A stretch of 64,000 bases of DNA from Octopus vulgaris (taxonomy: Eukaryota). The translations under genes were made by a program, and so were the position numbers. The stretch lies in contig OX597814.1 in assembly GCA_951406725.2 (NCBI GenBank), positions 62,310,001 through 62,374,000 of the forward strand. Direction: 5' to 3'. Positions 9,122 through 46,505 of the stretch are shown here, one piece after another (positions within the stretch are counted from its first letter, which is position 1; the number at the start of each line of letters is the position of its first letter). Below the pieces are notes generated by a model, which saw only the letters and a list, made by a program, of their open reading frames with translations, was not told the DNA's origin and did not search any database.

Positions 9122-9180
<59 letters not shown>

Positions 9181-10410: not shown

Positions 10411-10479
10411 GTGTGTGTCATCGTGTATATATGTGTATGTATATATATATGTATATACATACATATATATACTTGCATA

Positions 10480-13151: not shown

Positions 13152-13153
<2 letters not shown>
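10480..13153 (-). mobile_element. 5'-truncated RTE LINE with frameshifted RT
   Basis: Two ORFs ([19 protein letters not shown] and [15 protein letters not shown]-like finger..RLRWYGHV) joined by a 1-nt frameshift near 12380; (CAT)n tail. Confidence 0.95.
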
Positions 13154-13198
<45 letters not shown>

Positions 13199-13258
13199 AT
13201 ATATAAACATATATATATATACATATATATATATATACACATATACACACATATATAC

Positions 13259-13291
<33 letters not shown>

Positions 13292-13434
13292 CATGCATAC
13301 ATATATATACACACACATATATATATACATACATATATATATATTTATATATATATATATATTTATACATGCATACATATATATACACACATATATACAT
13401 ATATATATGCACATATATACACACATATACATAT

Positions 13435-13853
13435 ATCATCATCATCATCGTTTAATGTCCGCTTTCTATGCTAGCATGGGTTGGACGGTTCAACTGGGGT
13501 CTGGGAAGCCCGAAGGCTGCACCAGGCCAGTCAGATCTGGCAGTGTTTCTACAGCTGGATGCCCTTCCTAACGCCAACCACTCCATGGGTGTAGTGGGTG
13601 CTTTTTATGTGCCACTGACACAGGTATCAGACGAGGCTGGCGAACAGCTATGCTCGGATGGTGTTTTTTTTGTGCTACCGACACAGGTGCCAGACGAGGC
13701 TGGCGAACGGCCACGCTCGGATGGTGTTTTTTACATGCCACCGGCATGGAGGCCAGGCGAGGCTGGCACGGCCACGATCGGATGGTGTTTGTTACGTGCC
13801 CACAGCACGGAGGCCAGTCGATGCGGTACTGGCTATGGCCACGTTTGGATGAT
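13435..13853 (-). mobile_element. RTE 3' UTR-only copy
   Basis: Near-identical to 7958-8320; flanked by microsatellite. Confidence 0.88.
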
Positions 13854-13888
13854 ACATACAAATATATATATATATATATACATACATG

Positions 13889-13919
<31 letters not shown>

Positions 13920-14044
13920 GTATATATATGTGTATATATATATATGTGTGTATATATATATGTGTGTATATATATATGTGTGTATATATATATGTGTGTA
14001 TATATATATATATATGTGTATATATATATGTGTATGTATATATA

Positions 14045-14089
<45 letters not shown>

Positions 14090-14330
14090 ATGTATATGTA
14101 TGTATATGTATGTATGTATATATATGTATCTATATGTATGTATATATATGTATGTATATGTATATATATATATGTATATATATGTGTATATATATGTATA
14201 TATATATATATACATGTATATATATGTGTATATATATGTATATATATATATATATACATGTATGCATATGTGTGTATATATATGTATATATATATATATA
14301 CATGTATGTATATGTGTGTGTATATATATG

Positions 14331-14361
<31 letters not shown>

Positions 14362-14546
14362 ATATGTGTGTGTATATATATATATATATATATGTATGTA
14401 TATGTGTGTGTATATATATGTATATATATATATATACATGTATGTATATGTGTGTATATATATGTATATATATATATATACATGTATGTATATGTGTGTA
14501 TATATATGTATATATATATATATATATACATGTATGTATATGTGTG

Positions 14547-14579
<33 letters not shown>

Positions 14580-14600
14580 GTGTGTGTGTATGTATATGTG

Positions 14601-14639
<39 letters not shown>

Positions 14640-14715
14640 GTGTGTGTATGTATATATATGTATGTATATATATATATGTATGTATATATATTATGCATAT
14701 ATGTATATATATATA

Positions 14716-14865
14716 TCACATCACATGACTGCTGGTCTCAATGTGCTTCGCATTGTTTTAGCCTTCAAATGATGCCACCATGCAGAAGAAAGATTGAGAG
14801 AAAGTATGGTGAAAGAGTAGAGCAAGGATTGCCACCATCCCCTGCTGAAGTCTCGTGGAACTTTA
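14716..14865 (-). mobile_element. Partial SINE, family C
   Basis: Reverse complement of the 3' part of 23802-24105 (cttcgcattgttttagccttcaaatga). Confidence 0.7.
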
Positions 14866-15105
14866 TATGTGTGTGTGTATATATATATTTATATACAAAA
14901 TAAGAAATGGAGGAATACACACACACTGACTATTGCAATGCAATTACTTTAGTCCCAACATGTATGATCCCCAATCGTAATTGCCAAAAAGTACAATTCA
15001 GGTGAAGCATAGTCGTTATATTTAAATAATTGTTTGTGGTTGTAGAAGAAATGTATTGTTTGTAACAATTTTGTGAAATAGTTTGTTTTTATCTTCTCTT
15101 TCTAG

Positions 15106-15133
15106 CTTATTATAATGGTGGGATATCCTGCAG
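15106..15133 (+). CDS. PNKP: PNKP 28-nt micro-exon (LIIMVGYPA, first half of Walker A)
   Basis: Polypyrimidine tract with tctag acceptor, gtatgt donor; phase 0-1; joins the next exon to give GYPAAGKST. Confidence 0.9.
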
Positions 15134-16452: not shown

Positions 16453-16514
16453 CTGGAAAAAGTACCCTTGTAAAAGCTTATCTTGAGCCTGCTAACTATG
16501 TTCAAATTAATCGT
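16453..16514 (+). CDS. PNKP: PNKP exon, 62 nt (AGKSTLVKAYLEPANYVQINR)
   Basis: ttccag acceptor, gtaagt donor; GKST of the P-loop. Confidence 0.93.
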
Positions 16515-17040: not shown

Positions 17041-17289
17041 AAGATAAAAGATAAATGCTTTACCTTTTCATGTACCTCATCTTCCCTGTAAATTGGAAGA
17101 CTCTATATCAAAATTTTTTTTAATGTGTAGAGTCAACACAAATTAAATTGTTGAATTTTATCATTATAGGTTTATTGCTACAAGATTTTGTGTTCAAAGT
17201 TTGCCATGTTCAGATTTATTTTTCCTCATAGTTAACTAGCAGAGATACCCAGCATTGCTCAGGATTAAAATGGCATAGTTTTTTATTGT

Positions 17290-17652
17290 TTTACTTGTTT
17301 CAGTCATGTGATTTTGGCCGTGCTGGAGCACTGCCTTCAGTCGAGCAAATCAACCCCAAGATTTATTCTTTGTAAGCCTAGTATGTATTCTATCGGTGTC
17401 TTTTGCTGAAGCTGTAAGTTATGGGGATGTAAACACAGTAACATCGGTTGTTAAGCGATGGTGGGGGTAGAAACACAAACACGCACATACATGCACACAC
17501 ACACATGCACGCGCACACACATGCATACACACGCACACACACACACACACGCACACAAACAAATATACACACATATATATATATATATGACAGTCTTTCA
17601 GTTTCCGTGTATGAAATCCACTAACAGGACAATGGTCGGCCTGAGGCTATAG
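17290..17652 (-). mobile_element. SINE family A, head missing
   Basis: tacttgtttcagtcat...tcgagcaaatcaacccc...gaggctatag, cut by a (TA)n tract. Confidence 0.8.
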
Positions 17653-17654
17653 TG

Positions 17655-17698
<44 letters not shown>

Positions 17699-17721
17699 TG
17701 CACACATGTATATATATGTAT

Positions 17722-18106
17722 ATCAGTGCTGGTGGCACATAAGAGAACCATCCGAACGTGGCCGTTGCCAGTGCCGCCCTGACTGGCTTACGTGCCAGTG
17801 GCACGTAAAAAGCACCATCCGATCGTGGCTGTTTGCCAGCCTCGCCTGACCTCTGTGCCGGTGGCACGTAAAAAGCACCATCCGACCGTGGCCGTTTGCC
17901 AGACTTGTCTGGCACCTGTGCAGGTGGCACGTAAAAAGCACCCACTACACTCATGGAGTGGTTGGCGTTAGGAAGGGCATCCAGCCGTAGAAACATTGCC
18001 AGATCAGACTGGGCCTGGTGCAGCCTTCTGGCTTCCCAGACCCCAGTTGCACCGTCCAACCCATGCCAGCTTGGAAAGCGGACGCTAAACGATGATGATG
18101 GTGATG
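17722..18106 (+). mobile_element. RTE 3' UTR-only copy with four 58-59 bp repeat units
   Basis: gtggcacgtaaaaagcacc repeats, conserved terminal motif, (GAT)n tail. Confidence 0.88.
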
Positions 18107-18736
18107 TGTATATATATATATAATTAAAACAGTAAATAATAAATATATATATGGGTATGTATATACCAATAACTATATGCAAACAGCATGAAATGCATAA
18201 ACAACGAGAGAGAAAAAATGGTAAAGAGGACATGTAAACACAGAAATGACCCTTCATCAGTTGTTAGCTCTCTATCTACCCCTCATTTCGAGCATTCAAT
18301 GACAATACGAGCCTTTAAAGACAGTTGCTCCTATATATTCTAAAATAAAATTTAGGATGTATGGGGGGTCAAAGTTGGGAACAAAAACAGGACAGTAGAG
18401 ATATGCAAAGAAACCGAACAAAAACAAATATGGAGGGTCGTCAGACCAGAACAAGAGGAGAATAGTGAACTCTGGGAGAAATACATATATCATCATCATC
18501 ATCATCATCATCGTTTAACGTCCGCTTTCCGCGCTAGCACGGGTTGGACGGTTCGACCGGGTCTGGGAAGCCAGGGGCTGCTCCAGGCTCCAGTCTGAAT
18601 CTGGCAGAGTTTCTACGGCTGGATGCCCTTCCTAACGCCAACCACTCCGTGAGTGGATTGGGTGCTTTTTACGTGCCACCTGCACAGGGGCCGGAGGGTC
18701 CGGCATTGTCACGATCGGTTCGAGCATTTTAACGTG

Positions 18737-21700
18737 TCAGCGGCACGGGGGCAACGAGGTCCGGGGTACTTTGGGGATCGGGGTACTTTGGGGATCCAGG
18801 GTACTTTGGGGATCCGGGGTACTTAGAATGGGTAGGGGGTATGTGGAATTGCTGCAGAAAGCAGCCCGGGTCTTTGTAGTCACAGCATATCTCCAGAGAT
18901 CTCGGTCCTTCGCCATTGCCTCAGTGAGGCCCAATGCTCTGAGGTCATGCTTGACCACCTCATCCCATGTCTTCCTGGGTCTACCTCTCCCCCTGATACC
19001 TTCAACTGTTTGGGAGTGGCACTTCTTCACACATCTCTCTTCATCCATCCGCAGCACATGACCATACCATCGCAAGCGTCGCTCTTGCACACCACATCTG
19101 ATGCTTCTTATATCCAGCATTTCTCTCAGGATACTTACACTCTGTTTTGCGTGCACACTGACACTACACATCCAGCGGATCATGCTAGCTTCATTTCTTT
19201 CAAGTCTACGCATGTCTTCTGCAGTCACAGCCCATGTTTCATTACCGTGAAGCATGGCAGTTCGCACACATGCATCATACAATCTACCTTTTGCTCTGAG
19301 GGAGAGACCTTTTGTTGCCAGTAGGGGTAGGAGCTTTCTGAACTTTGCCCAGGCTATTCGTATTCTAGTGGTGATACTCTCTGTGCATCCACCTCCGCTA
19401 CTAACTTGGTCACCCAGGTAGCGGAAACTATCAACTACTTCTAGTTTCTCTCCCTGGAGTGTGATGGAATCTGTTTTCTGAGTGTCTGTTGTGTCTATTG
19501 TCCCTGTGCATCTGCCGCACATGAAAGCTATCTTATCTGTTAATTTCCCTTTAATGTTGCTGCACCTCTTATGTGTCCATAACTTACATTGGGTGCATCT
19601 TATGGAGTTTCTACCTGTACCTTTCCTACAGGTTGAGCAGGGCCACCTACCCGAGGGGATGTGTGCTGAGTACCTCTTGCTGCTTACTAATACTTTGGTC
19701 TTTGCTACATTTATTCTAAGGCCCTTTGATTCCAACCCTTGCTTCCACACCCGAAATTTCTCTTCTAGTTCCGGTAGTGATTCTGCTATGAGAGCTAGGT
19801 CATCGGCATAGAGGAGCTCCCAGGGGCATCCCGTTTTGAATTCCTCTGTTATTGCCTGAAGGACTATGATGAATAAAAGGGGACTGAGGGCTGAGTCCTG
19901 GTGCACACCTACTTCTACCCGGAATTCTTCACTATATTCGTTGCCAATCCTAACCTTGCTGACAGCCTCTCTGTATAGAGCCTGTACAGCCCTTATTAGC
20001 CATTCTTCAATCTCCAGTTTCCGCATCGACCACCAGATAAGGGAACGGGGAACCCTGTCAAAGGCTTTCTCCAAGTCTACAAAAGCTATGTAGAGGGGTT
20101 TATCTTTAGCTAGGTACTTCTCCTGCAGTTGTCGGACCAGGAATATAGCATCAGTGGTGCTTCTACCTGGTACAAAACCGAACTGCATTTCATCTAAACA
20201 AATTCTCTCCCTAATGAGATTGGTTATGACCTTCTCTGAGACCTTCATCACCTGGTCCAACAGTTTGATACCTCTGTAGTTATTTCTATCTAGAGCATCA
20301 CCCTTACCCTTGTAGCAGTTGACTATGGTGCTGCTGCACCAGTCATTGGGTATGACTCCATTGTGAACTACCTGGTTTACAATGCGGGTGACTATGGCAT
20401 AGCCCACATAGCCAGCTGTTTTAAGCATCTCAGCAGTGATTCCTGATAGGCCAGGGGCTTTGCCTGGTTTCATATCCTTAATTGCCTTATCTACAAGGGA
20501 GCTGTCTATTCGGATAGCTGGTCCCTCTACTGGGTCAACATTTGGCAGGCTCTCCTCCTCCCATTCATTCTCCTCATTCAGCAGTCTTTCATAATGGCTT
20601 CTCCAAGCCTCTTTCTTTTCACTAGTAGTAAAAGCAAGTGCCCCATCATCCATGCGGACACATTTCTCTCCTATAACATCGCTATTTTCTCTGACACACT
20701 GTCTGGCAATCCGAAATACTTCAGCTCTTTGATCCTCGCGACGCTGGACATTGGCAAACTTCTTCTTTTCTGCTACATCTTTGGCAATGTATACCTGCCG
20801 CCCAGCCTCCCTTTTGGCTATCTGGTACAGTTCCCTGCTGCCCCCATCCTTCCAGGCTTTCCAGGCCCGTCTCTTTTCACAGATGGCTTTATCTACTGCA
20901 CTATTCCACCACCACGTAATTCTAGGTCTGGAAGGGACTTTGCACCATCCACAGACTTGGTCTGTGACACTCAACAAGCTGTCCCGTAGGAATTCCCAGC
21001 TACCTTCTATGTCTGACGTCTGAAGCTCCTCCTCCCTCTCATCAAATTTCTTGATGAGTATGTCCCTAAATTTCTGACCATGCGAAGGGTTCTTTAGCCT
21101 CCAAATCCTTCTTTTCTGGATTGGTTTGTTTCTTGGAGTCCTTCTGGCCTCAAGCTTAAAGTCACTGATGATTAGTCTATGCTGAGGGATACATTCTTCA
21201 CCCGGAAGGGTCTTTGTATTCAAGAGCAACCCTGCATCCCGTTGTCTGGTGAGGATGAAGTCTATTTGGCTAGCGGAGTCTCCTGACTGATATGTTATAA
21301 GGTGGCAGACTGGCTTCTTGAAGTTAGTGTTGCAGATTGAAAGGTTACATGCATCACAGAATTCCAGCAGTCTAGTTCCCTCATCATTTCTGGTGCCAAT
21401 ACCATAGCCACCATGTACCCCAGTGAAGATACCCGATTCCCGCCCAACATGCCCATTAAAATCTCCACCTACAAAGATGAGGTCCTTGTTACTAGTCTTT
21501 GAAGTAGCCTGCAGAAGGGTATCATAAAAGTTGTCCTTCTGATCATTTGGTAGTCCCGCTTGTGGGGCATAGGCTGAGATAATCATAGCTGTGCCACTCT
21601 GTAGGACCAACCTGAGCTTAAGCACTCTATCACAAACCCTGACAACCTCTATGACCTTATCCACCCATTCCTCCGCAAGGAGAATGCCTACACCCCCTAC

Positions 21701-21856
21701 ACCTTCCGCGTTACCTTGCCAGTAGAGTTTGTATCTAAGTGCCTTGCCCGTGAGGACCCTAGCCGAAGCATCTCTCCATCTTACCTCTTGTATGCAGCAT
21801 ACATCAACCTGTCTTCTCTCTAGCATCTCTACAATCTCACTAGACTTGCCTGTCAA
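18737..21856 (-). CDS. RTE ORF: APE endonuclease + reverse transcriptase + C4HC3 finger
   Basis: CIQEVRW, SAYAP, GDFNGHVG, QIDFIL (APE); DLEKAFD, HQDSALSP, LLYADD (RT); no internal stop over 1039 codons. The true start is probably upstream (see findings); QG-to-QD in RT motif B may impair activity. Confidence 0.95.
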   Translation of the reverse strand: MTGKSSEIVEMLERRQVDVCCIQEVRWRDASARVLTGKALRYKLYWQGNAEGVGGVGILLAEEWVDKVIEVVRVCDRVLKLRLVLQSGTAMIISAYAPQAGLPNDQKDNFYDTLLQATSKTSNKDLIFVGGDFNGHVGRESGIFTGVHGGYGIGTRNDEGTRLLEFCDACNLSICNTNFKKPVCHLITYQSGDSASQIDFILTRQRDAGLLLNTKTLPGEECIPQHRLIISDFKLEARRTPRNKPIQKRRIWRLKNPSHGQKFRDILIKKFDEREEELQTSDIEGSWEFLRDSLLSVTDQVCGWCKVPSRPRITWWWNSAVDKAICEKRRAWKAWKDGGSRELYQIAKREAGRQVYIAKDVAEKKKFANVQRREDQRAEVFRIARQCVRENSDVIGEKCVRMDDGALAFTTSEKKEAWRSHYERLLNEENEWEEESLPNVDPVEGPAIRIDSSLVDKAIKDMKPGKAPGLSGITAEMLKTAGYVGYAIVTRIVNQVVHNGVIPNDWCSSTIVNCYKGKGDALDRNNYRGIKLLDQVMKVSEKVITNLIRERICLDEMQFGFVPGRSTTDAIFLVRQLQEKYLAKDKPLYIAFVDLEKAFDRVPRSLIWWSMRKLEIEEWLIRAVQALYREAVSKVRIGNEYSEEFRVEVGVHQDSALSPLLFIIVLQAITEEFKTGCPWELLYADDLALIAESLPELEEKFRVWKQGLESKGLRINVAKTKVLVSSKRYSAHIPSGRWPCSTCRKGTGRNSIRCTQCKLWTHKRCSNIKGKLTDKIAFMCGRCTGTIDTTDTQKTDSITLQGEKLEVVDSFRYLGDQVSSGGGCTESITTRIRIAWAKFRKLLPLLATKGLSLRAKGRLYDACVRTAMLHGNETWAVTAEDMRRLERNEASMIRWMCSVSVHAKQSVSILREMLDIRSIRCGVQERRLRWYGHVLRMDEERCVKKCHSQTVEGIRGRGRPRKTWDEVVKHDLRALGLTEAMAKDRDLWRYAVTTKTRAAFCSNSTYPLPILSTPDPQSTLDPQSTPIPKVPRTSLPPCR

Positions 21857-22383
21857 TGTACCAACATTGATAGTGCCAACTCTGAAAACTGGGAAGGAGA
21901 TGTGGGGGGGACGGGGGGATTCGGCGCCTGAGAAGAGGAGGGTTGTTGTGGTGGTGATAGTTTTCGTGGTATTTTTCTTTTGATCTCTCTTCCAACCTGA
22001 CCACGCCGTGGGCAGGAGCTGGTGTTAGCAGTGGACATTCGTTATCGTCACTGAGTAACGTAATTAGGTAGAGGAAAGAAATACAGATATTCTAGAGTTG
22101 AGTTGGGGAGGGGGGTCCAGTTGAGGCGGGTAATATAGGGGAGCAACCAGTGGGGAAGGTTGGGGTAAGGAGGAACGATGGCAGGAAGGGTTGGTGTAGG
22201 TTCGTAAGAAATAAAAACGTAGGATATTACGAGGCGGGAGGGTACTAAAAGGGGATGGTCAGATTGAGGCAGTGTCAGGAGGAAGCGTAAGATCGGTGGG
22301 CAGTTGATGAGCTATGGCGCTAGCAGCTTGTCTTTTCACAGTGAAAGCATATGAGGAGAAGGGGTAGTGGGGCGAGGAGGAGG

Positions 22384-22603
22384 GAGTAGGGCGTATCCGG
22401 TGTAGATGAGTAGGGCGTATCCGGTGTAGATGGTGAGAACAGGGTATACTGGTATTGGTGGTGGGGGTGAGAACAGTGTTCACTGGTATTGGTGGTGGCG
22501 GTGAGAACAGTGTTCACCGGTATTGGTGGTGGGGGTGAGAACAGTGTTCACCGGTATTGGTGGTGGGGGTGAGAACAGTGTTCATCGGTATTGGTGGTGG
22601 GGG
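22384..22603. repeat. RTE 5' UTR minisatellites: 24 bp x2 and 34 bp x5
   Basis: gagtagggcgtatccggtgtagat x2; ggtgagaacagtgttcaccggtattggtggtggg x5. Confidence 0.92.
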
Positions 22604-22617
22604 TGGGGGGCGGGCGC

Positions 22618-23230
22618 ACCGCCGATGGCGGAAAGATGGGAAAAGATGGGATTACGGCTTGAGGTAGCCTAAGGTTAAATTTCGTAGAGAGAGAGATAGG
22701 AAAGATAAATCAAGTTATGGCGAAGGCTTGAAAGTAGCCTAAAAGGTTAAATTTTCGTAGTGAGTGAGATGGGTAAGACGAATCAAGTTATCAATGTATG
22801 AATAAACGTAGTAACAACGAATAAAAATAGTAAGATAAATTTTTAAGAACTTGCTGCGGGCATCGACCGGGAGTTGAAATTGAAGAAGAAAGTAAGTTGA
22901 ATTGGGAATTTAAATTGCAGAATCGTAATGGTAATGGCGATTTTCAAGTTTTAGCATAAGAAGAAGAAGAGGAGGAAAGACCGCCGATGGCGGAAAGATG
23001 GGAAAAGATGGGATTACGGCTTGAGGTAGCCTAAGGTTAAATTTCGTAGAGAGAGAGATAGGAAAGATAAATCAAGTTATGGCGAAGGCTTGAAAGTAGC
23101 CTAAAAGGTTAAATTTTCGTAGTGAGTGAGATGGGTAAGACGAATCAAGTTATCAATGTATGAATAAACGTAGTAACAACGAATAAAAATAGTAAGATAA
23201 ATTTTTAAGAACTTGCTGCGGGCATCGACC
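22618..23230. repeat. 251-bp direct repeat, period 362 bp, at the RTE 5' end
   Basis: 22618-22868 and 22980-23230 look identical by eye. Confidence 0.93.
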
Positions 23231-23265
23231 ATATATATATATATATATACACATAAACAATTGCA

Positions 23266-23490
23266 GTGTGGAAGGTGTTTATAAGCCATTTAAAAAAACA
23301 CAGAAACTGTTAGATTCACTTCAACATTTAAATTTAATTTGCCAAAATATTTTCATATTTTTGAGACCACGACCTGATTACTGACTTGTCTCAAAGCAAC
23401 AAAAATATTTTGGCAAATTAAATTCAAATGATGAAGTGAATCTAACAGTTTTTTGTGTGTTTTTAAATGGCTTATAAACACTTTCCACGC
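23266..23490. repeat. Imperfect inverted repeat, arms about 100 bp
   Basis: 23266-23367 is the approximate reverse complement of 23388-23490; the unit is flanked by (TA)n. Confidence 0.88.
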
Positions 23491-23547
23491 TTTTCGTTTC
23501 AGTACATGCTCTCAGATCAGGTCACTTGCTATGTAAGTACATCTCCG

Positions 23548-23586
<39 letters not shown>

Positions 23587-23629
23587 CATATATATATATA
23601 CATATATATGTACATATATATCTATATAA

Positions 23630-23673
<44 letters not shown>

Positions 23674-23801
23674 CTGATTTCACTGCAGAGGGAACTTTTG
23701 AACACACTGTATATACATATATACACACACACATATATACATATACATACTATATGCACACACATATATACATACTATATGCACACATATATATATGTGG
23801 A

Positions 23802-24100
23802 GGCGCACTGGCCCAGTGGTTAGGGCAGCGGATTCACGGTCGTAGGATTGCGGTTTTGATTCCCAGACCGGGCATTGTGAGTGTTTATTGAGTGAAAACA
23901 TCGAAAGCACCACGAGGCTCCGGCAGGGGCTGGTGGCGATCCCTGCTGTACTCTTTCGCCACAACTTTCTCTTACTCTTCTGTTGACCTGCTCGCTTAGC
24001 CAGCGGGGTGGTGTCATTTGAAGGCTAAAACAATGCGAAGCGCATTGTGACCAGCAATGTGTAGCAACATCTGATAGCCTGGTCGGTCACGGTGATCACG

Positions 24101-24105
<5 letters not shown>
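23802..24105 (+). mobile_element. tRNA-derived SINE, family C
   Basis: A box tggcccagtgg, B-box-like ggttttgattcc, short repeated tail, embedded in TA repeats. Confidence 0.85.
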
Positions 24106-24154
<49 letters not shown>

Positions 24155-24235
24155 TGCATGCATATAAACAGTGATGACGATGATGATACACATACAAAGA
24201 TATACGTATACACACATGCTCACATATATATATAT

Positions 24236-27200
24236 ATAGTTAATCCAAACAAGAAAACACAAAAAGACAAAAAAACACAACAACGCGAGGACGTGGAACA
24301 AATAAAGTATTATTGGACGCTCAGGAAAGAAGGGAAGAAGGAGGGTTTAATGTTTTGAGTGGAGCTCTTCGTCGGAAACATAAGAGAAGGAAGGGTTCCG
24401 AGAAGGGAAGACAGAGGAAAAAAAATCGCCAGCGGTACTCACGAGGTCACATATTGGAAGACCGGAAGTAGAAAGGTGGAAGAATAATGTTTTTTAAAGA
24501 CAGGAGAGTTTTCAAAGACAGTAGGTAGTATGTCAAAGACAAGGAAAGTGAGAGGGGGAATGTGTGTGGATGTGTGCGTGTGCGGAGGTCTGCGTGTGTG
24601 TGTATGTGTGCAATGATGACACGTGTGTGTGTGTGTATGTGTGTAGGGCGAACAACTGGCTAGTAGCTGGCCAGTGTAAGAATGAGTGGTGTTTTTTGTG
24701 TCCAGCCACAGGTCAAAACAAAGAGGTATGTGTGTGTGCGTGTATGTATATGTATCGTGTGTGTTTTGTTTGTAGTGTGTGTGTGTGTGTGTATGTGTGT
24801 GTTTGTGTGTGTATGCGTAGAGTTTGGGTGTGTGGCGAGTAACTGTGCTTAACTTAGTGTATGTGTGCGTGTGTGCTTGTACGTGCATGTGTGTATATAT
24901 ATGTATAATTGTGTGCCGTGTGTATGGGATGTATGTGTGGGTTCATTTGTGTGTGTGTGTGTGTGTATGTATGTGTGTGTGTGTAAGCGTATATGGATGT
25001 ATATGCGTGTATCCGTGGGGTTGTGAGTTTTGGGTGTGTGCATTGGTGTGCATGCGTATGTGCGCATGTTTTTGTGTGCGTATGTGTGTGTGTGTCTGGT
25101 TATATGTGTGTATGTATGTATGTGCGCGTGTAGGTATATATTGTGTGTATGTATATGTGTCGGTGTGTATGTGAATTTGTGTGTTTGTATGTGTGTGTGT
25201 GCACGTGTATTGTATATATATGTAAATGTGTGTGCGTGTGTGTGTACATGCGTGCGAGTGAATGTATGTATATATGTGCGTGTGTGTACAAATGTAGAGG
25301 TTTATATGTGTGTTTATATGTGTGTATATATATGTATGCAAGCTCACACTTTATAATTGAAAGATTGATGGAAAAAAAAATTGGTGTGGGTGTATGTGAA
25401 TCCACAGGCACACACACACACACACTGACGTACGCCTGCAATACAGCCAACCCCATATGCATGTATGTGTGTGTGTGTGTATGTATGTATGTGTGTATGT
25501 ATGTCTGTATGTGTGTGTGTGTGTATGTATGTATGTGTGTGTACGTATGTATGTGTGTGTGTGTGAATGTATACGTGTGGGAGTTTTTCTGGAGTTGTGT
25601 GAGCATAATGTACATGCGTGTGCATGCGTGCGGTTACGTGCGTGTATGTGTGTGTGTGTCTCTGCTAGGTGTTTGTAAGAGTGCGTATCTGTATGAGTAT
25701 TGTTTGTTGGTGTGTGTGCACGGGCATGTGTGTGGGGGTGTGTGGGGGTGTATAGGTGTGGAAGTATGTGTGCGTACATGTGCATTTTGGATGTATGTGT
25801 GTGGTGTGTTGGAAGTAGGTGTGTTCGTGGATGCGTGAGTATGTGTGTGTGTGTGTTTCTGTATAAGGACAAAATATAAAAAAAAAGGTTGCTAGTGGGG
25901 AGAGGTGGAGTGCAGTCACTAAGAGGAGGAGGCTGTGTTGAGTCCGTGTGGGGTATTGGTCTGTAGAGGGAAAATGAATCGTTGCTCCAAGTGGAGCCTG
26001 GATTGTGGAGGACCGTTGTGTGGGGTGAGACCAAGCAGTGATGTCATCAGGGGAATGGCTGGCCGAGCGGAAGTGACGTGCGACAGGAGAATTGGACCGT
26101 AGACGAACATCCCTTAGATGTTCGGCGAATTGGTCTGACAACCGGCGTCCCATCTGTCCTATATACAGCATTCCGCAGAGGTTGCATTTAATGCAGTATA
26201 TGAGACCAGACGAAGTGCACGTAAAAGAATGTCTGATACATACAGTTCGCTGGTTGGAACCGGTGACAGCAGTGGTGTTGGTGATGAAGGGGCAGGTGTT
26301 GCAGCGGGATCTGGAGCAAGGGAAGGATCCCTGTGGGGCTGAGGGGGAAGAAGAGAGAGTGCTATGGACCAGGAGGTCGCGTAGATTCTAGGCTCATTTG
26401 AAGGAGGACAGGGGTGGGTTGGGGAAAATGGGATTGAGCTGGAGACGGCGGTAGGCATGTAGTATCTTCTGACGAAGGGGTAGAGTAGAGGGGTGGAAAA
26501 GGAGGGGAAAGAGGGTTGGGGTGGGTGGGTGAGAAGAAGGAGAAAGGGCGGTGGTGCGGTCGATGCGGCGGGTGAGGGCGTTCAAGACCAGGGTAGGTGG
26601 GTATCCTTGATGCCTGAACAGGCGGGCCAGGTATTGAGACTGGGTCTCGAAATCCTGGTCGCGGCTGCACAAGCGTCGGAGGTGGAGGAACTGGGAGTAG
26701 GCGATGGTCCGTTTGGTGTGGAAGGGATGGGAGGAGGAGAAGTTGAGATAGAGGTGGGAATCCGTGGGTTTGAAGAAGGCGGAGGTGGTGAGAGAGTGGG
26801 AGGGGTGGTCAATGTTGAGAGAGATATCAAGGAAGTTAACAGAGGTATTGGAGATTGGTGGAAGTGAATTGTAGAGAGGGGTGGAAGTTAGAGAGGAAAG
26901 AGATGAAGTGGCAGAGTTGTTCGCGGGAAAGGGAGGTGGCGCCTATGCAGTCATCTATGTAGTGGCCGTATAGTTCCGGGGTCGGCCTGGAGAATTGGGA
27001 GAATTCTTGGGCCTCAATGTAGCCAACAAAGAGATTGGCGAAATTGGGGCCCATTCTCGTTCCCATCGTGACCCCAGACAACTATTGGTACGTTTCCCCG
27101 GCGAACGTGAAACAGTTGAGGGTGAGGACGAGCTCTGCCAGGTGGAGAAGGGTGGGGGTGCTGGGGGTGGGGTCGGGACGACGGTCGAGGAAGTGTTGGA

Positions 27201-27515
27201 GGGCTATGAGACCGTCGTTGTGGGGAATTACCGTATACAGGGATTTTATGTCTAAGGTGAAGAGGAGGTGTGAGGGGCTGGAAGGGAAGGAAAAGGAATT
27301 GAAGAGACGGAGGGCGTGTTTGGTGTCATGTATGTGGGATGGGAGGGCTGCGACTAAGGGGGACAGGATGCGGTCGAGGTATAAGGAAAGGCGTTCAGTG
27401 GGGCAATTACAGGCGGTAACAATGGGGCGGCCAGGGTTATTGGGTTTATGAATTTTGGGAAGGAAATAGATGGTGGAGGTGCGGGGTGTGCGGACGATGA
27501 GGTTGGTGGCGGTGG
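24236..27515 (-). mobile_element. 5'-truncated Penelope-like element 1 (Neptune-like by resemblance), decayed RT + GIY-YIG
   Basis: PKIHKPNNPGRPIV, DIKSLYT, GVTMGTRMGPNFANLFVG, YIDD; CTSSGLIYCIKC..C..LYIGQMGRRL...FAEH; stops and frameshifts; probable pLTR at 24236-24560. Confidence 0.9.
24560..25860. repeat. Degenerate TG-rich low-complexity block
   Basis: Directly visible, between the PLE-1 ORF end and its probable pLTR. Confidence 0.92.
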
Positions 27516-28302
27516 GGGGTTTCTACAATTACATTTCTCTCCGGGGCCTTTCCTAGTTTTATTTCTATTGTTACCTTTACTTTTTGTGTCTCCAGTTCTA
27601 GACAAGTTTCCCTCTTTCATTCCATCAAATCTTCCCTTATTACATGGGTTCGATAGACCCGGTAAAGGCAGACTGTTTGTACCATTGGCATTAGGTGTTA
27701 CAAAATTATTATACGCAGTTCCTTGGTCATCCTCAAAAGAACTTTTCCAGCTAATTCGCCCCAGCAAGCTTGCTTCTATTGATTGATGCAATAATCGAAG
27801 CAAAGTTAGGCATTACAGAGTAAGAGAACTTGATCGTTGACTTGTTGCAAATGCTATAGTATTTATGATTCTTTGGGAAGTTCTCCTTCAGAATTCTAAA
27901 AAACATTTTTGGTAAGTTCCTTACTCTAAGGGAGAAAGGGGAAGCGAACCAAACAACTTCCCTTATTCTAGACCGTGAACCTCCGTTTTGTTTAACTCCT
28001 TGTCAAAATTATTAATTTTCTTATACCTGTACCTATTGCGAGTATCCCTAAACACATTACTACTCAAAGGCTTTCTATTATTGCAGTTGGGGGGGGGGTT
28101 CCCTGCATTAGTATTTGTGACGTGCTTAAATGGCAAACCAGCCATTTTGTTTTTGAGTCTAGTATTAAGGATATAAAGTATTTTAGATTTGAAACCACTT
28201 AATCTTAGGGCATTATTATACACCGGTGCATGCTGTTCAAAAATCTTTTCATTCGCAGGTAAATTAGATATTCTAGTTGAAATTGCAGTAACGATGCTGT
28301 CT
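27516..28302 (-). mobile_element. Inverted upstream segment of Penelope-like element 2
   Basis: Minus strand reads ISTRISNL..YNNALRLSGF, VVWFASPFS..FPKNHKY..TIKFSYSVMPNF, then CNCRNP (PLE thumb/linker, frameshifted). Confidence 0.85.
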
Positions 28303-29762
28303 ATTATTGCATCAATCAATAGAAGCAAGCTTGCTGGGGCGAATTAGCTGGAAAAGTTCTTTTGAGGATGACCAAGGAACTGCGTATAATAATTTTGTAA
28401 CACCTAATGCCAATGGTACAAACAGTCTGCCTTTACCGGGTCTATCGAACCCATGTAATAAGGGAAGATTTGATGGAATGAAAGAGGGAAACTTGTCTAG
28501 AACTGGAGACACAAAAAGTAAAGGTAACAATAGAAATAAAACTAGGAAAGGCCCTGGAAAGAAATGTAATTGTAGAAACCCCGAATTATGTCCTTTAGAT
28601 GGTTCCTGTCTAGTTACTAACGTTGTATATAAATGTGTAGTCAAGGACGAGGATAAGTTAAATAAATTTTATATAGGTAGCATGGTAGATTTTAAGGCTA
28701 GATATAGATCACATATGAGCTCATTTTCTAACGATAAATACTGTAATTCAGCAACACTTGCATCCCATATACACAATTTGAAGAAAAATAATAAGAATTA
28801 TTATCTAGAATGGTCCATTATCTCTAAAACCCCAAATTTCAAGGGAATATTAACAAGTGTAAGCTGTGCATAAGGGAATCCCTTACCATCCTTAGGTGTT
28901 ATGGACCGCACACTCTGAATAAATTTACTAACGTGATTCCTTTTTGCATCCATAAATTTTCTTCTACATTCTTAAAAGTGTATAAGAATAAAATAAGTTG
29001 TAGAAAATAAATAATTTAGTTCTTACAGGGTTTGAAACCACGGAGGTTCAATTTAATTTAATTTAATTTAACTTAATTTAATTTAATACACCCTATTAAA
29101 AGAATTTTTTTTTACTGATTTATTTTTCTACTGCTTTAAAAAAATTTTTTTACTGCTTTAATTCTTTCTTTTGGGCTCGTCTGAGCATGACTTCTTCAAT
29201 AAGAAAGCACACAATATTGTGTTAAGCCTGGTACGCGATGATGTCTGTCTCTCTATTTTTTTCCCCTGACGAAGGAGTTATTATTGTGATGCACCCTAGT
29301 GCTTTAAACACAATAATATACCCCTGAAATGGCCATAGGGAATGTAAATATGGCTTCCTCTTATTTGAAAAGTAAATTTATAAGATTTTCTAAACGATGA
29401 ACTTTTATTTTATTTTACATTATATATTATATATTTTTTATATGCTTCCTATATATATATATATATATTTTTATATACCTATATATTTATATATTACTTT
29501 ATACTATATTTTCACGTATTTACTTTCTAGGTGTTGTAATGGTTTTTTAAAAAAATATATTTTTCTTGATTGCTAAAGTATTAGCTTTTAACCGTGATGA
29601 ACTGTATTCACACATTTTTTCTCGCACTTTCTTATATGCTTGTACAGATGAGTTACATTCCATCTTCCGTGATGTTTAAATGTATATTCTATGATTAAAT
29701 GTTTGAGTTATGAAATGTTATGTGGATGACCTTGCATTTGTTTGTTCTATAACCTTAGTTTG
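28303..29762 (+). mobile_element. 3' segment of Penelope-like element 2 (GIY-YIG + pLTR; Nematis-like by resemblance)
   Basis: CNCR....CPLDGSCL..NVVYKC..FYIGS...FKARYRSH, then a hammerhead-bearing UTR ending at (TA)n; 28303-28582 is the inverted copy of 27516-27795. Confidence 0.88.
29261..29342 (+). ncRNA. Type I hammerhead ribozyme in the PLE-2 pLTR
   Basis: Stem I ttccc/gggaa, core CTGACGA, long stem II, GAAA, palindromic stem III ATGGCCAT, AUA cleavage triplet. Confidence 0.8.
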
Positions 29763-30017
29763 ATATATATATATATATATATGAAACTATTAAAAGTGAA
29801 ACAATATAAATGTGAAACTATTAAAAGTGAAACAATATAAAAGTGAAACTATAACTGTTACTCCATTGAAGGTTTCACTTTTATTCTTGCATTGTTTTAA
29901 TCCAAACTAATTACATGTTGATACTCCTGGGGTCTCGTAGTATTACCATATAAAATTTAATTTAATTTGGTTGTGCTGTTTGAGAATGCATTGGGAACAG
30001 ACAGAGATACAAAGGAT

Positions 30018-30059
<42 letters not shown>

Positions 30060-30128
30060 GGAGTAAACACATAAATGTGAAACAAGGTGGAAAAAAGAGT
30101 ACTCAAATACCAGTGGTAGAGTAATATG

Positions 30129-30293
30129 CTTTATTTAAAGCAGCAGAAAATTCAACAAAATCTGTTACTCTGAGTTTCTCGTTGCCGTTCATCAGACAGT
30201 TTTTGCTAGAATCTAGCAAAAACTGTCTGATGAACGGCAACGAGAAACTCAGAGTAACAGATTTTGTTGAATTTTCTGCTGCTTTAAATAAAG
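30129..30293. repeat. Perfect hairpin, 82-bp arms with a 1-nt loop
   Basis: 30129-30210 is the exact reverse complement of 30212-30293 by eye. Confidence 0.95.
30223..30260 (+). ncRNA. Minimal hammerhead motif (mirror copy at 30162-30199 on the minus strand)
   Basis: ctgt-CTGATGA-a cg gcaa cg a-GAAA-ctc a gag-TA-acag; stem II closed by an A-A mismatch. Confidence 0.7.
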
Positions 30294-30339
30294 TATATAT
30301 ATATATATATATATAGATAGATATAGATAGATAGAGAGA

Positions 30340-30620
30340 TGAAAGAGTACTAGTAGTTTTACTAGGTTTAGTTTAATTCATTGTGATTCTGTTCCCTTTT
30401 CAAAAAGAGCCTTCGGTATATGTGAAGATACTCAATTTTTATTGTTATATAGATTTATTGCTACAAGATTGTGTGGTCAAAGTTTGCCATGTTCAGATTC
30501 AGATTACTTTTCATCCATCTATAGTTAATGAAAGAGTACCAGTAATTTTACTGGGTTTAATATAATTCAGTGTGATTCTGTTCCCTTTTGAAGAAGGGCC
30601 TTCTGTATTTGTAAGAAAAT
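30340..30620. repeat. Old tandem duplication, unit about 190 bp; the first half of copy 1 lies at 17150-17235
   Basis: tttattgctacaagatt..aagtttgccatgttcagatt at both 17172 and 30454; tgaaagagtac..gtgattctgttccctttt at both 30340 and 30529. Confidence 0.85.
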
Positions 30621-32116
30621 TGTCATTACTTTACTATTTCTAATTTATTGTTGTTAAAAGTATTTGACCTTGATATTAATTTTCTTTTGTTTTTTTTTTT
30701 GTCTTTACTGTTCTAAATTTTGCATTCTGGGTTAAGAAAGTTTACTTTGTGTATAGTCTATCACTTATGTTTTTGAATTTTACGGCTTAGTCATTTTTAT
30801 GAAGTGCTTCTGATACTGGTGGGAGAAGAGGAAACTCTCAAATTCAATGTACTAAACCTTATTGCAAAAAAATTAATTCTTTATTTGTGGTTCCCATGCT
30901 TGGTAACTCCTCCCCCCACACATACACACACATATATTTTGTTACCTGTTATGTCACTAACTTGCAGTTTTTCAAACTATACCGACTAGGTTTTTTGGGA
31001 CAGTGATGAATTTGTTGTCTCTAGGGAGACAACAATATTAATAACACATGCACTGATTCAATTCCACTCCTCCATTATTAGTTAATTGGTTAAATACCTA
31101 TCCCCCTAATTAATTGATCATTTGTTTAACTTGTTAGTTAAACAGTCAATCGTTTGTTTTGTTTTGTTTTTATTTTGTTTGTCAGACTTATTTTGTTGCC
31201 ATTCACAACTTTTTCAGTGATTCCCATTTCATTATAGGGGCTGTGTTTGCCTGAGTCCTCGTTGCTTGTATGTGTGTAGAATATGGTAGGGGTATATGAA
31301 TATGGTGTGTGTCTGTGTGTGAGATTATATGTGTGCATATATGTATGTCTGTGTCTGTATCCCTGTATCTGTGTGCGTGCATGAGTGTGTACATATATGC
31401 TTGTGTGTGGTGTGTGTGTGTGTGTGCACGTATGTGTACTTCTGCATCTATGTGCATGTTTGTATGTGCATGTGTGTGTGTGTGCCTGTGTATGTCTGTG
31501 TGCTCATGTGTATGTATGTGTGTCTGTACATGTGTGTGTTTATGTGCAAATACATGATGTGTATGTTGGTTTGTGTATGGTTGTGTGTTCCTCTGTCCTT
31601 GTATGTATGTGTTTATGTGTGAATGCTTGTGTGAGTGTCTGCATGTGCATGTGCCTGTGCCTATTTACGTGTGTGTATGTGTGCCCCTTTCGTATGCATG
31701 GTACATGTATGCCTGTGCATGTGTGTGGGGGCTGTGTGTGGATGTATGTGCATATCTATCTGTACTACTTATTTATCTACTTACCTATTTATCTACCTGC
31801 CTGTCTCCCTATATACTTACCTCCCTACTTGGTTAACTAACTAGCATTCTACATAACTAACCTTACCACCTAAATACAATCCTACTTATTTACCTACATG
31901 ACTGCCTGCCTACCTATCTACTTATCCAGCCACCCATCTACCTACCTACCTACTTTATGATTCTACCTATGTACCTACCTGTCTATTCAAATATACCTGT
32001 GTATTTACTCTGCACAGGTGGTATCTATGGTATTGAAGTATCTCTACCTCCTACATGTATTTTCTATTCAGTATGAGTAATGTTTCATTTATAAGGACAC
32101 ATTCTTATAGTTATGT

Positions 32117-32463
32117 CAAAGGTTCTCAACCATTTTTTATCCATGGACCCCTTTGATAACTATTTTATCCTGGTGGATCCTCATAGCTATTCAATGTTTA
32201 AAAACTAGTTTTATAGAAACTTCTTTCAAAATTCCTATTTTGTTTTTCACACATTCACTTGTGTAGGTTGAACTATGTAAAATGCTAGAGAAAGAAATGT
32301 AACTGTTTCTTGCAGTACATACCAATACATACATCGAAAGCAAAATTTTTTAGGGTCTCTTAAAGAACTTTTGTGGATCCCCAGCTTACTATTTAGTTGT
32401 GTGGACCCCCAAAAAATTATATGGATTCTTAGGGGCCATATGGATCCTAGTTGAGAAACATTG
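32117..32463. mobile_element. hAT-like MITE
   Basis: Termini caaaggttctcaac / gttgagaaacattg and repeated tggaccc(c) subterminal motifs; TSD not recognisable. Confidence 0.5.
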
Positions 32464-32469
32464 GTCTTA

Positions 32470-33085
32470 ATAACGAGTCCCTTGGGTGTTTGGACAACAT
32501 GCAGATGTTAGTTTCCCATCATTATACTCTCTCTAATGTTCATTCAGCCTTTCTGCTAAACTCGTATAGGTCTCTCCAATGTATGCTATGCTCCTGTCCT
32601 TACAAACTCCTTTCATGCATCTTATGCTGTAGACTACATTCCTAGTCTTACACTTAATACTGGGATTAAAGGTACATACCACACAGTTCTTACCAGTGTA
32701 TGTGGTATTGTCAAAGGGGTATGTCCTACATAATTGGGATCTGATGGACCTCCCTGGTTTCTGAATCTTAATGTTGAGTTTGATGTCCTTCAAAGCCTTC
32801 TTAAACCTACGTGCTAATTCCCCATGCAGTGTGGCCTCTACAGACATCAGTCCTTGATATTTATCAGCCTTATATTTATCAGCTTTGTTACAAACCCTCT
32901 GTATACTGTTCCAGTGTTTACTTTGGTATCTAGGATGGGTACCACTGACATTATTACAGATTATGTTATCTAATTTCTTTCTGGCACCCCTGTATACTTG
33001 AACCCTATCTTTCTGGTTGTATCCAGAGAACTGCATGCTGTGCATGAAGTTCTGTGCATGTCTCCATGTTTCATAGGGTTCACAC
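32470..33085 (-). mobile_element. Decayed Penelope-like element 3 fragment (thumb + GIY-YIG)
   Basis: MQFSGY....R, CKTRNVVYSIRC...AYIGET..SLAERLNEH. Confidence 0.75.
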
Positions 33086-35349
33086 AGACAGGCATGAGTG
33101 CACATACATGCAAATACCCACATACACACACAGGCATATGTGCACACACATACATACACTCATTCAAGCACTCACATAGACACACACACACCCAAATGGA
33201 CACAGAAATACACAATCATACACAAACCTACACCATGTATATGCATGTGCACTCATATACAGACATAAGCACACACTGACATACATAAGGCATACACATA
33301 CTATGCATACACATGCACAAATACACACACACACACACACAAGCATACATGCATAAACACCCCCCCTCACATGCACAGGTGCATACATGTATGGATGCAG
33401 AGTATACACACACACAGACACATCCATGCACATGACACAAGCATGCACACATGGATGCAAAAATACAGACATGTACAAAAGCATACACATACATACACTC
33501 TCACACATGCAAACACAGGTATATACACATTCACACAGTAACACATACACATACATACACATGCAGATAATCACACACACACACATTCAAGCAACAGGAT
33601 CTTAGACAGGCAAATACAGCCCCTATAACAAAATGGGAGAGAAGTCACTGAAAAGGTTGTGAATGGCAATGAAAGAACTGACCCCCCCCCCCCCTAAAAC
33701 CCTCCCCCCTCCAAACAATTGACTGTTTAATCAACAAGTTAAACAAACTATCAACTAGTTTGATAGATATTTAACCTGTTGCCTAATAATAAAGGTGTGG
33801 AATTGAGCCAGTGTGTGTGTTGGTGTGATGACTCCCTAGAGACAACAAAATTTGTTTCAACACATAAATTCACATAAAGAATCCTGAAAACCAAATACAA
33901 AAATTAAATAGTTCTTACTTTAATTATTCTGTTGCTTAAGGTGGGAAACTGACAGGATTGTTAGCACACTGGGCAAAATACTTAACGGCATTTCGTTTAT
34001 ATTCACATCCTGAGTTCCAATGCTGCCTGGGTCAACTTTGGCTTTTATATTTTTGGGGTCGATAAAAAGAGCACTGGAGTTGGTGTAATTTACTTACCCA
34101 CTCCTTTGAAATTGCTGGCCTTGTGCCAAAATTGGAAACAAGTTATTCTGTTATTTACTCTGGCTACCTCAGTTACTTTATCCCATACTCTGCCTATTCT
34201 AACAACTCCAGCATTGATACCCATTCAGAAGAACTTTTAATTGAGTTCCTTACTGTAAGAATTCTGGCTGAAGCTTTTCTCTGTCTTACCGTTTGTACAA
34301 TAAGCATTGTACACATCTATTCACTTCTAATCTTTACAATCTCTCCAGGTCTACCTTTCACTGTGTTAACTCAGAGTAAAAAGTTTCTGGTGGTTTTGGG
34401 GTTGTTTGTGTCTATTTTCTGCATCTAAAAAGAAGTGAGTTGGTGCAATCATTTGATGACACTCACACATAGCCAGATTTTCCCAAATGGTCACTTCCAC
34501 TACCATGTAAGGCCCTGTATATTCAATTACGATATTTTTGCTGATTTCACTGTCATCTTTTTCTTGTGCTTTTTGTACTCTTTCTATCAGAAACCATTTT
34601 ACAGCATAGACTGAGAACTATTGTTCCACCTGCTCTAGAAAAACTGCCTGGCAGGACTGGTGTGTACCTTCTACACTCTATCAAGGTTTTTCCAGAATTG
34701 CTTCTCTCCAGCAAGAGTTGATTTCACTGCAGCTTGTATGTCTCTGCTATTCAGATTTTTATTCAAGGGTGACATATCTAGGAGATATGTTACCTTCTCT
34801 GTTGAGTCATTGTCTCTTCTGAGCAGGAAAAAAAGTAATGTAAATAATAATTATATGCATAGTTTAAACTAAGAACACTTGCTTGCTATGTCTTTACTTG
34901 AGAAATTGGGAATAATATATGACATACATAAGTTGCTCTTTTACATGTGTAAATGAACTTTTAGGCAAAGCTGCCAAAAGGTGGTGCGAGAAGAGGAGAG
35001 AGAAAGAGATTATTTATATGATTAGTTATGTTTGCATAATGCTGAATAAAGAGATGTCATATATATAATTTATAACAGTTTAAGGAGATCATTAATATTA
35101 ATACAAGTTATGGTAATGATAATTACTTGCATAGCTTAAACTTAGCATTCTCGTTGCAGCTTTCTTCAGAGTTTGGCTATAATATGTCACATTCACTCTG
35201 TCTCTCTCAATGTCACTTGAGAAATGGCATTGCATTAGATCTGTCTGTATTCAATCCCACTCTATCATTCTTTATTGCTAACCATCTTTCTCTCTGCCTC
35301 TCCCATTACTCTTTCTTTTATCAATCATTACGGATACCTTTATTTTTTA

Positions 35350-46395: not shown

Positions 46396-46505
46396 GACAT
46401 ACTTGGAAATTGGAAAAAATGTGTTGCTTTGTGTCGGCAGAATTTAGAAAATGGGAAGAGTGTTGTGATAGACAACACAAATCCTGATAGGGAGTCACGT
46501 AAACG
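46396..46505 (+). CDS. PNKP: PNKP exon, 110 nt (DILGNWKKCVALCRQNLENGKSVVIDNTNPDRESRKR)
   Basis: aaccag acceptor, gtcagt donor; kinase VIDNTN motif. Confidence 0.95.

What the first reader, a model, noticed from the sequence alone, without database searches (positions are those of the whole stretch)
17236..30339. 13.1-kb block is one Helitron acting as a retroelement landing pad; empty site preserved next door
Seen: joining the flanks (atagttaa at 17228-17235 + tgaaagagtac from 30340) recreates exactly atagttaatgaaagagtac at 30521-30539, the intact second copy of an old tandem duplication. The insert starts TC and ends hairpin+CTAG on the minus strand, between A and T, with no TSD. Known: these are canonical Helitron hallmarks. 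Nested inside are two SINEs, an RTE tail, a full RTE, two PLEs and two fold-back units. Inference: a roughly 0.4-kb microsatellite-bearing Helitron seeded a pile-up that makes up about 44% of this intron; with both termini intact the cargo could in principle be moved as a unit.
Basis: partly seen in the sequence, partly recalled or inferred. Interest (0 to 1): 0.8.

Follow-up and report, generated by a model that had tools for sequence, protein, structure and literature searches.

The report
Old Helitron stuffed with nested retroelements
In an intron of an octopus DNA-repair gene, a 13-kb block with Helitron transposon ends sits beside a duplicate of its own empty insertion site, and it is likely a short, old transposon whose AT-repeat tracts were later filled one by one by other mobile elements, which is an ordinary kind of nesting.

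Summary
The boundaries are real. Rejoined flanks align to a neighbouring ~190-bp tandem copy (143 of 159 letters). The 13,104-bp insert reads A|TC...CTAG|T on the minus strand, has no target-site duplication, and fills 43.9% of a PNKP intron. The 5' segment (29782-30010) is a multi-copy repeat in all three organisms laid as contigs. Nested inside are two SINE-like copies, LINE pieces with one intact 1,095-aa ORF, Penelope-like pieces and two fold-backs, from ~17% diverged to ~1%. That spread points to stepwise insertion in place. The 3' hairpin is decayed (180 of 200 shuffles fold as well), so the termini are not both intact, and nothing shows the block moved. The likely landing pad is the (TA)n tract, not the Helitron: 6 of 7 LINE tails outside the block also abut microsatellites, and an upstream intron holds an 8.5-kb pile-up without Helitron ends. 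That both termini belong to one family could not be tested. Helitrons inflated by nested elements are already described. Verdict: a clean but ordinary nested insertion.

The parts
16454..16514 (+). PNKP exon upstream of the host intron
   Evidence: tblastn with the O. bimaculoides homologue P0001; donor GT at 16515
17120..17235 (.). left half of the interrupted copy of the ~190-bp tandem duplication (A)
   Evidence: alignment to 30419-30528
17236..17280 (-). Helitron 3' end: CTAG at 17239-17236, decayed palindrome at 17263-17248
17281..17653 (-). SINE-like copy 1, truncated at 17653; possible 5-bp duplication/microhomology at 17275-17279 and 17649-17653
   Evidence: 81% to the window copy at 58242-58461, p-distance 0.168; the missing part was not found elsewhere in the block; SINE label and strand recalled
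17654..17720 (.). (TA)n/(CA)n tract, likely the left remnant of the internal seed microsatellite
17721..18105 (-). LINE (RTE-type) 3' tail
   Evidence: many window copies at 70-86%; 3' end mapped
   Evidence: only a 26-bp match elsewhere in the window
18481..23230 (-). full-length LINE (RTE-type) with open 1,095-aa ORF (18737-22024) and a 251-bp identical duplication at its 5' end
   Evidence: RVT_1 5.9e-27, Exo_endo_phos, PHD-like; duplication 251 of 251; RTE clade label recalled
23259..23545 (.). fold-back unit 1, older (arms differ at 12 of 105)
23797..24103 (+). SINE-like copy 2 with tRNA-like head (read by eye)
   Evidence: 74% to 14730-14870; no Rfam tRNA match
24238..27515 (-). Penelope-like element 1, 5'-truncated, with stops and a frameshift, RT and GIY-YIG-like motifs, long TG-rich tail
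   Evidence: translation; one weak protein relative E 2.5e-4; no Pfam hit
27516..29760 (+). Penelope-like element 2 with inverted 5' arm; young
   Evidence: arms differ at 5 of 293; GIY-YIG clusters at 0.93-0.94; tail depth 4,650-34,094 in organisms A and B against 0-36 in C
29762..30057 (-). Helitron 5' body between two (TA)n tracts; multi-copy family; this copy lacks ~33-40 letters near 29884-29888 that other copies hold
   Evidence: 24-71 contigs per listed place in each of three organisms; 11-21 other letters per 100-124 aligned
30058..30293 (.). fold-back unit 2, young (arms differ at 1 of 82), very high-copy, hammerhead-like core motif in each arm, inserted in the 5' (TA)n tract
   Evidence: no Rfam family at gathering score; motif recalled
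30294..30339 (-). Helitron 5' terminus: TC followed by (TC/TA)n
30340..30447 (.). right half of the interrupted tandem copy (B)
30419..30640 (.). intact second copy of the tandem duplication; empty A|T site at 30528/30529
46396..46505 (+). PNKP exon downstream of the host intron

Best explanation
The block is bounded by Helitron ends at an A|T site in one copy of an old ~190-bp tandem duplication, and it likely began as a ~0.4-kb non-autonomous Helitron that grew to 13.1 kb in place as SINE-like, LINE and Penelope-like copies inserted one after another into its (TA)n tracts. Shown: the empty site, the termini, the multi-copy 5' body, the nested inventory, the spread of ages, the decayed palindrome. 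Inferred: a RepHel transposase supplied in trans inserted the short element. Its internal and 5' (TA)n tracts then served as targets for retroelement endonucleases, each insertion splitting the tract and leaving new TA edges for the next. The 3' palindrome decayed, probably by CpG deamination. The composite is most likely a fixed, immobile relic with no function of its own.
For: Empty site and A|TC...CTAG|T with no TSD; chance about 5e-4. The 5' body is multi-copy in organisms A, B and C. 13 of 16 nested-element boundaries lie within 45 nt of a (TA)5+ tract, against 5.4% of 3,000 background positions (I drew several boundaries at tract edges, so this is partly circular). LINE 3' ends defined independently by their tail abut microsatellites in 7 of 9 cases, against 11-16% background. 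Ages differ: SINE 1 p-distance 0.168 to another copy, fold-back 1 arms 0.114, PLE 2 arms 0.017, fold-back 2 arms 0.012, LINE ORF open. The PLE 2 tail family is nearly absent from organism C while the Helitron family is abundant there. Undoing TpG by one rule at all 98 CTAGT sites moves this site from rank 57 to rank 4 (-0.8 to -4.4 kcal/mol). Published: huge non-autonomous Helitrons are mainly inflated by nested TEs (PMC12001565, passages); Penelope-like elements show microsatellite insertion bias and inverted 5' copies (PMC8557442, passages).
Against: No second copy carrying both ends was seen (none among 24 loci from collection scans), so the one-element model for the two ends is inferred. 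No ortholog in an empty or partly filled state was seen: B looks filled at the 5' end and C is unresolved. The internal tract could have come with SINE 1 or expanded after the insertions. The full LINE's 3' end does not abut a microsatellite. The PLE 1/PLE 2 junction has no TA tract. Rank 4 of 98 after TpG reversal is suggestive only.
Confidence: 0.72

Rival explanations
1. The Helitron is a passive container. The seed microsatellite arrived with SINE 1 or grew at its truncated end, so the pile-up would have formed with or without the Helitron.
For: An upstream intron holds an ~8.5-kb pile-up (6366-14890) that starts and ends in (TA)n with no Helitron ends outermost. 6 of 7 LINE tails outside the block abut microsatellites. 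The SINE family carries its own (CA)n/(TA)n tract.
Against: The 5' (TA)n tract directly follows the terminal TC and took fold-back 2. The possible 5-bp duplication around SINE 1 would place a TA tract in the target before SINE 1 came (weak).
Confidence: 0.12
2. The two ends come from two different Helitron copies or families inserted head to tail at the same site, with the middle later deleted.
For: Linkage of the two ends in one family was not seen. This copy has at least one internal deletion relative to its relatives.
Against: None of the 25 best-folding of 98 CTAGT sites marks an internal Helitron end in the block outside LINE or PLE sequence (the other 73 were not printed). One short element is simpler.
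Confidence: 0.1
3. The 13.1-kb composite was assembled elsewhere or has been copied as a unit by a Helitron transposase, carrying a full LINE as cargo.
For: The terminal TC and CTAG remain. In the bat Helraiser system, loss of the hairpin lowered transposition to 8.8% but did not abolish it (PMC4778049, passages). A 1,006-bp Hel-2 with a putative nested transposon moved into a baculovirus (PMC4344730, passages).
Against: The palindrome is decayed. The host copy differs from its relatives at about 11-18% of letters while some cargo is ~1% diverged, and the interrupted tandem copy differs from its twin by 10%. Cargo younger than the probable insertion date must have arrived in place. No RepHel ORF is in the block.
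Confidence: 0.04
4. The block is partly an assembly artefact, with repeats joined across microsatellites.
For: Every internal join is low-complexity. A 251-bp stretch is duplicated with 100% identity. No listed contig spans even the 1.6-kb stretch laid.
Against: Matching Helitron ends at a base-exact empty site would not arise from random joins. The right flank is reproduced without substitutions in runs of organisms A and B, by contigs that start just inside the 5' tract.
Confidence: 0.02

Closest known systems
Non-autonomous Helitron1 elements (Helraiser/Helibat paradigm, PMC4778049; insect Hel-2, PMC4344730)
   Same: 5'-TC, 3'-CTAG, insertion between A and T, no TSD, palindrome about 12 nt from the 3' end, no coding capacity, internal microsatellite
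   Different: The palindrome no longer folds; the tracts are (TA)n rather than Hel-2's (CTGT)n; the family could not be named because no repeat library was available
Helitrons inflated by nested TEs (Heli1Xen1 family survey, PMC12001565)
   Same: A short non-autonomous Helitron made very large by later nested insertions
   Different: Here the empty site survives in an adjacent tandem duplicate, and about 97% of the block is cargo
Microsatellite-targeting retroelements and nested-insertion hotspots (PLEs, PMC8557442; human nested TEs, PMC2836564)
   Same: Insertions cluster in (TA)n tracts and inside older TEs; inverted 5' PLE arms
   Different: Several unrelated classes share one tract; two searches of the paper library listed no title on such nests in octopus
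AcNPV Hel-2 with nested TE-LNCR (PMC4344730)
   Same: Helitron termini around a nested foreign TE
   Different: That 1-kb unit was seen to move; no movement is shown here and the block is 13 times larger

Membership tests
Non-autonomous Helitron1 | 5'-TC terminus | tested here: met
   minus strand starts TC at 30339, position fixed by the empty site
Non-autonomous Helitron1 | 3'-CTRR terminus | tested here: met
   CTAG at 17239-17236
Non-autonomous Helitron1 | insertion between A and T without TSD | tested here: met
   joined flanks match the tandem twin across the junction; one-base register ambiguity
Non-autonomous Helitron1 | GC-rich hairpin about 11-12 nt from the 3' end | tested here: inconclusive
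   does not fold as it stands (z +1.13; rank 57 of 98); rank 4 of 98 after TpG reversal; fits a decayed hairpin at the right distance
Non-autonomous Helitron1 | dispersed multi-copy family | tested here: met
Non-autonomous Helitron1 | both termini shared by other family copies | not testable with these tools
   no genome held; no copy in the window; collection scans gave only motif-length matches
Autonomous Helitron | RepHel ORF | tested here: not met
   six ORFs of the block scanned against Pfam gave no Rep or helicase domain; the other listed ORFs are microsatellite frames or alternative frames of the LINE and PLEs
Mobilised composite Helitron (cargo capture) | same cargo junctions at two or more loci | not testable with these tools
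   junctions lie in repeats that the read tool skips; no genome held
RTE-clade LINE (18481-23230) | single ORF with AP endonuclease and RT, short tandem-repeat tail | tested here: met
   (CAT)n tail; clade assignment by tree not done
Penelope-like elements (24238-29760) | RT plus C-terminal GIY-YIG, inverted 5' arm | tested here: inconclusive
   GIY-YIG clusters at 0.93-0.94 and a 293-bp inverted arm for PLE 2; motifs by eye and one weak relative for PLE 1; no Pfam hit

The most novel reading that the evidence does not exclude
A Helitron transposase still recognises these ends and has copied the whole 13.1-kb composite, an open-frame LINE and Penelope-like elements included, to other loci, so that rolling-circle transposition spreads intact retrotransposons and builds giant octopus introns in single steps.
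Probability: 0.04. Interest if true: 0.6.

Novelty: new member of a known kind. Interest (0 to 1): 0.27.

Why it matters
As it stands, this is a well-preserved record of how an octopus intron grew: one short DNA transposon insertion with a built-in pre-insertion control, then about 12.7 kb of nested copies of different ages. It suggests a testable idea, that Helitron-borne (TA)n tracts seed a large share of retroelement pile-ups in octopus introns. One locus cannot show that, and the upstream intron shows pile-ups without Helitron bounds. If the composite had moved as a unit it would be a striking case of rolling-circle transport of retrotransposons.

Tried and rejected
No genome of the window's organism is held, so the family search could not be run. 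Sensitive BLAST of both terminal segments within the window found no second copy. Motif scans: metagenome 0 and then 11 loci, viral 0, prokaryote genomes 13; all 24 loci matched only over 20-34 letters around the motif and were rejected as chance. Raw reads of run X22 (about 3 in 100 of the run read, 8 reads laid) said nothing about the junction. An empty allele in organism B was considered and judged unlikely: its contig starts 37 letters left of 30348, as expected if it ends in the 5' tract, but those letters were not shown. Organism C has no depth at 30325-30489 and its flank contig leaves the reference at 30533; the state there is unresolved and a hole proves nothing. Rfam gave 76 matches at E up to 5, none at gathering score, mostly microsatellite or palindrome noise; no tRNA or hammerhead family. 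Pfam found nothing in five PLE frames. Earlier scan notes: none. A long-TSD reading of the duplication was rejected: the order A-insert-B-A'-B' is not a TSD. Precise excision from the second copy was judged less parsimonious. A literature search for a TC(TA)n Helitron start gave six papers, seen only as listings, none evidently relevant. Supplements of the papers were not read; that of PMC13282606 might name the family.
Full report
Setting. A window frame at 46393-46527 finds the Octopus bimaculoides PNKP-like protein as best of 7 hits among 9 candidates (85% identity). tblastn with it places plus-strand exons near 312, 2451, 6021, 15106, 16454, 46396, 51876, 58019 and 58930. The host intron is 16515-46395, 29,881 bp, and the block is 13,104 bp, or 43.9%. 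The organism is an octopus; run labels are coded and no genome is held.

The empty site. Joining 17100-17235 to 30340-30450 gives a sequence that aligns across the junction to the copy at about 30419-30640. The core has 143 matches, 16 mismatches and 11 gap columns. The order A-insert-B-A'-B' is an insertion into the first copy of an old tandem duplication, not a target-site duplication. On the minus strand the insert reads A|TC...CTAG|T. With the junction fixed independently, the chance of these ends is about 5e-4, or 2.7e-3 for any CTRR. These are the termini and target described for Helitrons (PMC4778049 and PMC4344730, passages).

The hairpin. A palindrome-like stretch lies at 17263-17248, 12 nt from the 3' end, where Helraiser has its hairpin at 11 nt. 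It does not fold: -1.4 kcal/mol, z +1.13, and 180 of 200 shuffles do as well. Among 98 CTAGT sites in the window it ranks 57th. If TpG is reverted by the same rule at every site it ranks 4th (-4.4 kcal/mol). The 45-bp end has no CpG left. I read this as a real hairpin decayed by CpG deamination; that step is inference. The termini are therefore not both intact.

The 5' body is a repeat family. I laid 4 of the 24 listed runs on 29500-31130. Places 29922-29977 are covered by 24-71 contigs each in organisms A, B and C. Listed pieces differ from this copy at 11-21 letters per 100-124. Several carry 33-40 extra letters near 29884-29888, so this copy has a small deletion. Removing the cargo leaves about 0.4 kb: 17236-17280, 29762-30057 and 30294-30339.

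The cargo. From left to right: a truncated SINE-like copy (17281-17653), a LINE tail (17721-18105), an unassigned segment (18127-18480), a full LINE with an open 1,095-aa endonuclease-RT frame, fold-back 1, a second SINE-like copy, a broken Penelope-like copy (stops and a frameshift), a second one with an inverted arm and a GIY-YIG-like domain, and fold-back 2 inside the 5' tract. The labels SINE and RTE are recalled. The Penelope label rests on motifs, Atlas clusters at 0.93-0.94 and one weak relative; Pfam gave nothing for 5 of 5 PLE frames. No RepHel domain was found in the six block ORFs scanned.

Ages differ. SINE 1 is 0.168 from another window copy; fold-back 1 arms differ by 0.114, PLE 2 arms by 0.017 and fold-back 2 arms by 0.012. 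The PLE 2 tail (bins 29555-29774) has summed depth 4,650-34,094 in A and B and 0-36 in C, while the Helitron body is at least as deep in C as in A (depth is not copy number, but near absence is informative). The tandem copies differ by 10%. Organism C differs from the window in the flank at 19 letters over about 385 and 13 over 166. So the duplication and the Helitron family are old and part of the cargo is recent, which fits growth in place. In O. vulgaris a Helitron expansion is dated to Jukes-Cantor distance 0.09 and repeats make up 66% of the assembly (PMC13282606, passages).

What is the landing pad? 13 of 16 cargo boundaries lie within 45 nt of a (TA)5+ tract, against 5.4% of 3,000 background positions. 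I drew several boundaries at tract edges, so this is partly circular. An independent test uses LINE 3' ends defined by their tails: 7 of 9 abut a microsatellite, against 808 of 5,000 random places (540 of 5,000 outside the two pile-ups), and 6 of the 7 outside the block do so. The full LINE inside the block is one of the two exceptions. The ~9.0-kb intron upstream of the 15106 exon holds a pile-up from 6366 to about 14890 that begins and ends in (TA)n; 84% of that intron is self-repeat or microsatellite. So the effect follows the microsatellite, and a 44% share of an intron is not unusual in this gene. Tracts can also lengthen after insertion, so cause and effect are not separated here. Microsatellite bias and inverted 5' arms are described for Penelope-like elements (PMC8557442, passages), and preferential nesting for human TEs (PMC2836564, abstract).

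Other haplotypes. Contigs from A (X1, possibly the source of the window) and B (X3) match the right flank from 30348 with no substitutions and start 32 and 37 letters further left. That is what a contig ending in the 5' tract would show, so B is probably filled at this end; the letters were not printed. C has no depth at 30325-30489 and its contig leaves the reference at 30533; unresolved. The raw-read run gave 8 reads and no junction. No empty or partly filled ortholog was seen, and long-read support was not tested.

Mobility. Helraiser without its hairpin keeps 8.8% efficiency and reads through more often. A 1-kb Hel-2 with a putative nested transposon entered a baculovirus genome. Movement is thus not impossible. 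But nothing here shows it, the ends are old and decayed, and the young cargo likely postdates the insertion. I put it at 0.04.

Comparison and verdict. It works like, and by the termini and target tests is, a non-autonomous Helitron1 relic; the hairpin test is inconclusive and the one-family test could not be run. Very large non-autonomous Helitrons caused by nested TEs are already reported (PMC12001565, passages). Two library searches listed no title on such nests in octopus; I saw listings only for most hits, read PMC12988792 by term search with no relevant passage, and read no supplements. The adjacent empty site makes this an unusually clear example of a known process. Interest 0.27.

Noticed in passing
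window 6366-14890: A second pile-up of about 8.5 kb (LINE tails, a LINE fragment, a SINE-like piece, long TA/TG tracts) fills nearly all of the ~9.0-kb upstream intron, with no Helitron ends outermost.
   Followed up: partly
window 9230-10400: A second Helitron-like 3' end (minus-strand CTAG before T at 9230, weak palindrome, -2.8 kcal/mol) inside that pile-up, followed by ~1.2 kb with an internal 150-bp repeat; unrelated in sequence to the main element.
   Followed up: partly
window 22618-22868 and 22980-23230: A 251-bp stretch at the LINE 5' end is duplicated with 100% identity: very recent or an assembly artefact.
   Followed up: no
window 27515/27516: Two different Penelope-like families join directly with no TA tract and with neither missing part found nearby: a deletion or a template switch.
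   Followed up: no
window 30175-30195 and 30227-30247: Each arm of fold-back 2 holds a hammerhead-like core motif (motif recalled); no Rfam hammerhead match.
   Followed up: partly
window 30325-30625, run X9 (organism C): No depth over B and A'; the flank contig leaves the reference at 30533 with about 27 unaligned letters and is about 26 letters shorter over 30533-30625. C may have lost one tandem copy or carry a repeat directly at this site.
   Followed up: no
window 15106-15133: A 28-bp PNKP micro-exon encodes the start of the kinase P-loop, which continues in the exon at 16454.
   Followed up: no
window 3581-4431: Mariner-type transposase remnant (Transposase_1, E 2.8e-24) in an upstream intron.
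   Followed up: no
window 31011-33849 and 60036-60151: A further inverted-repeat element with a GIY-YIG-like frame (32533-33159, by eye) and another short fold-back lie outside the block.
   Followed up: no
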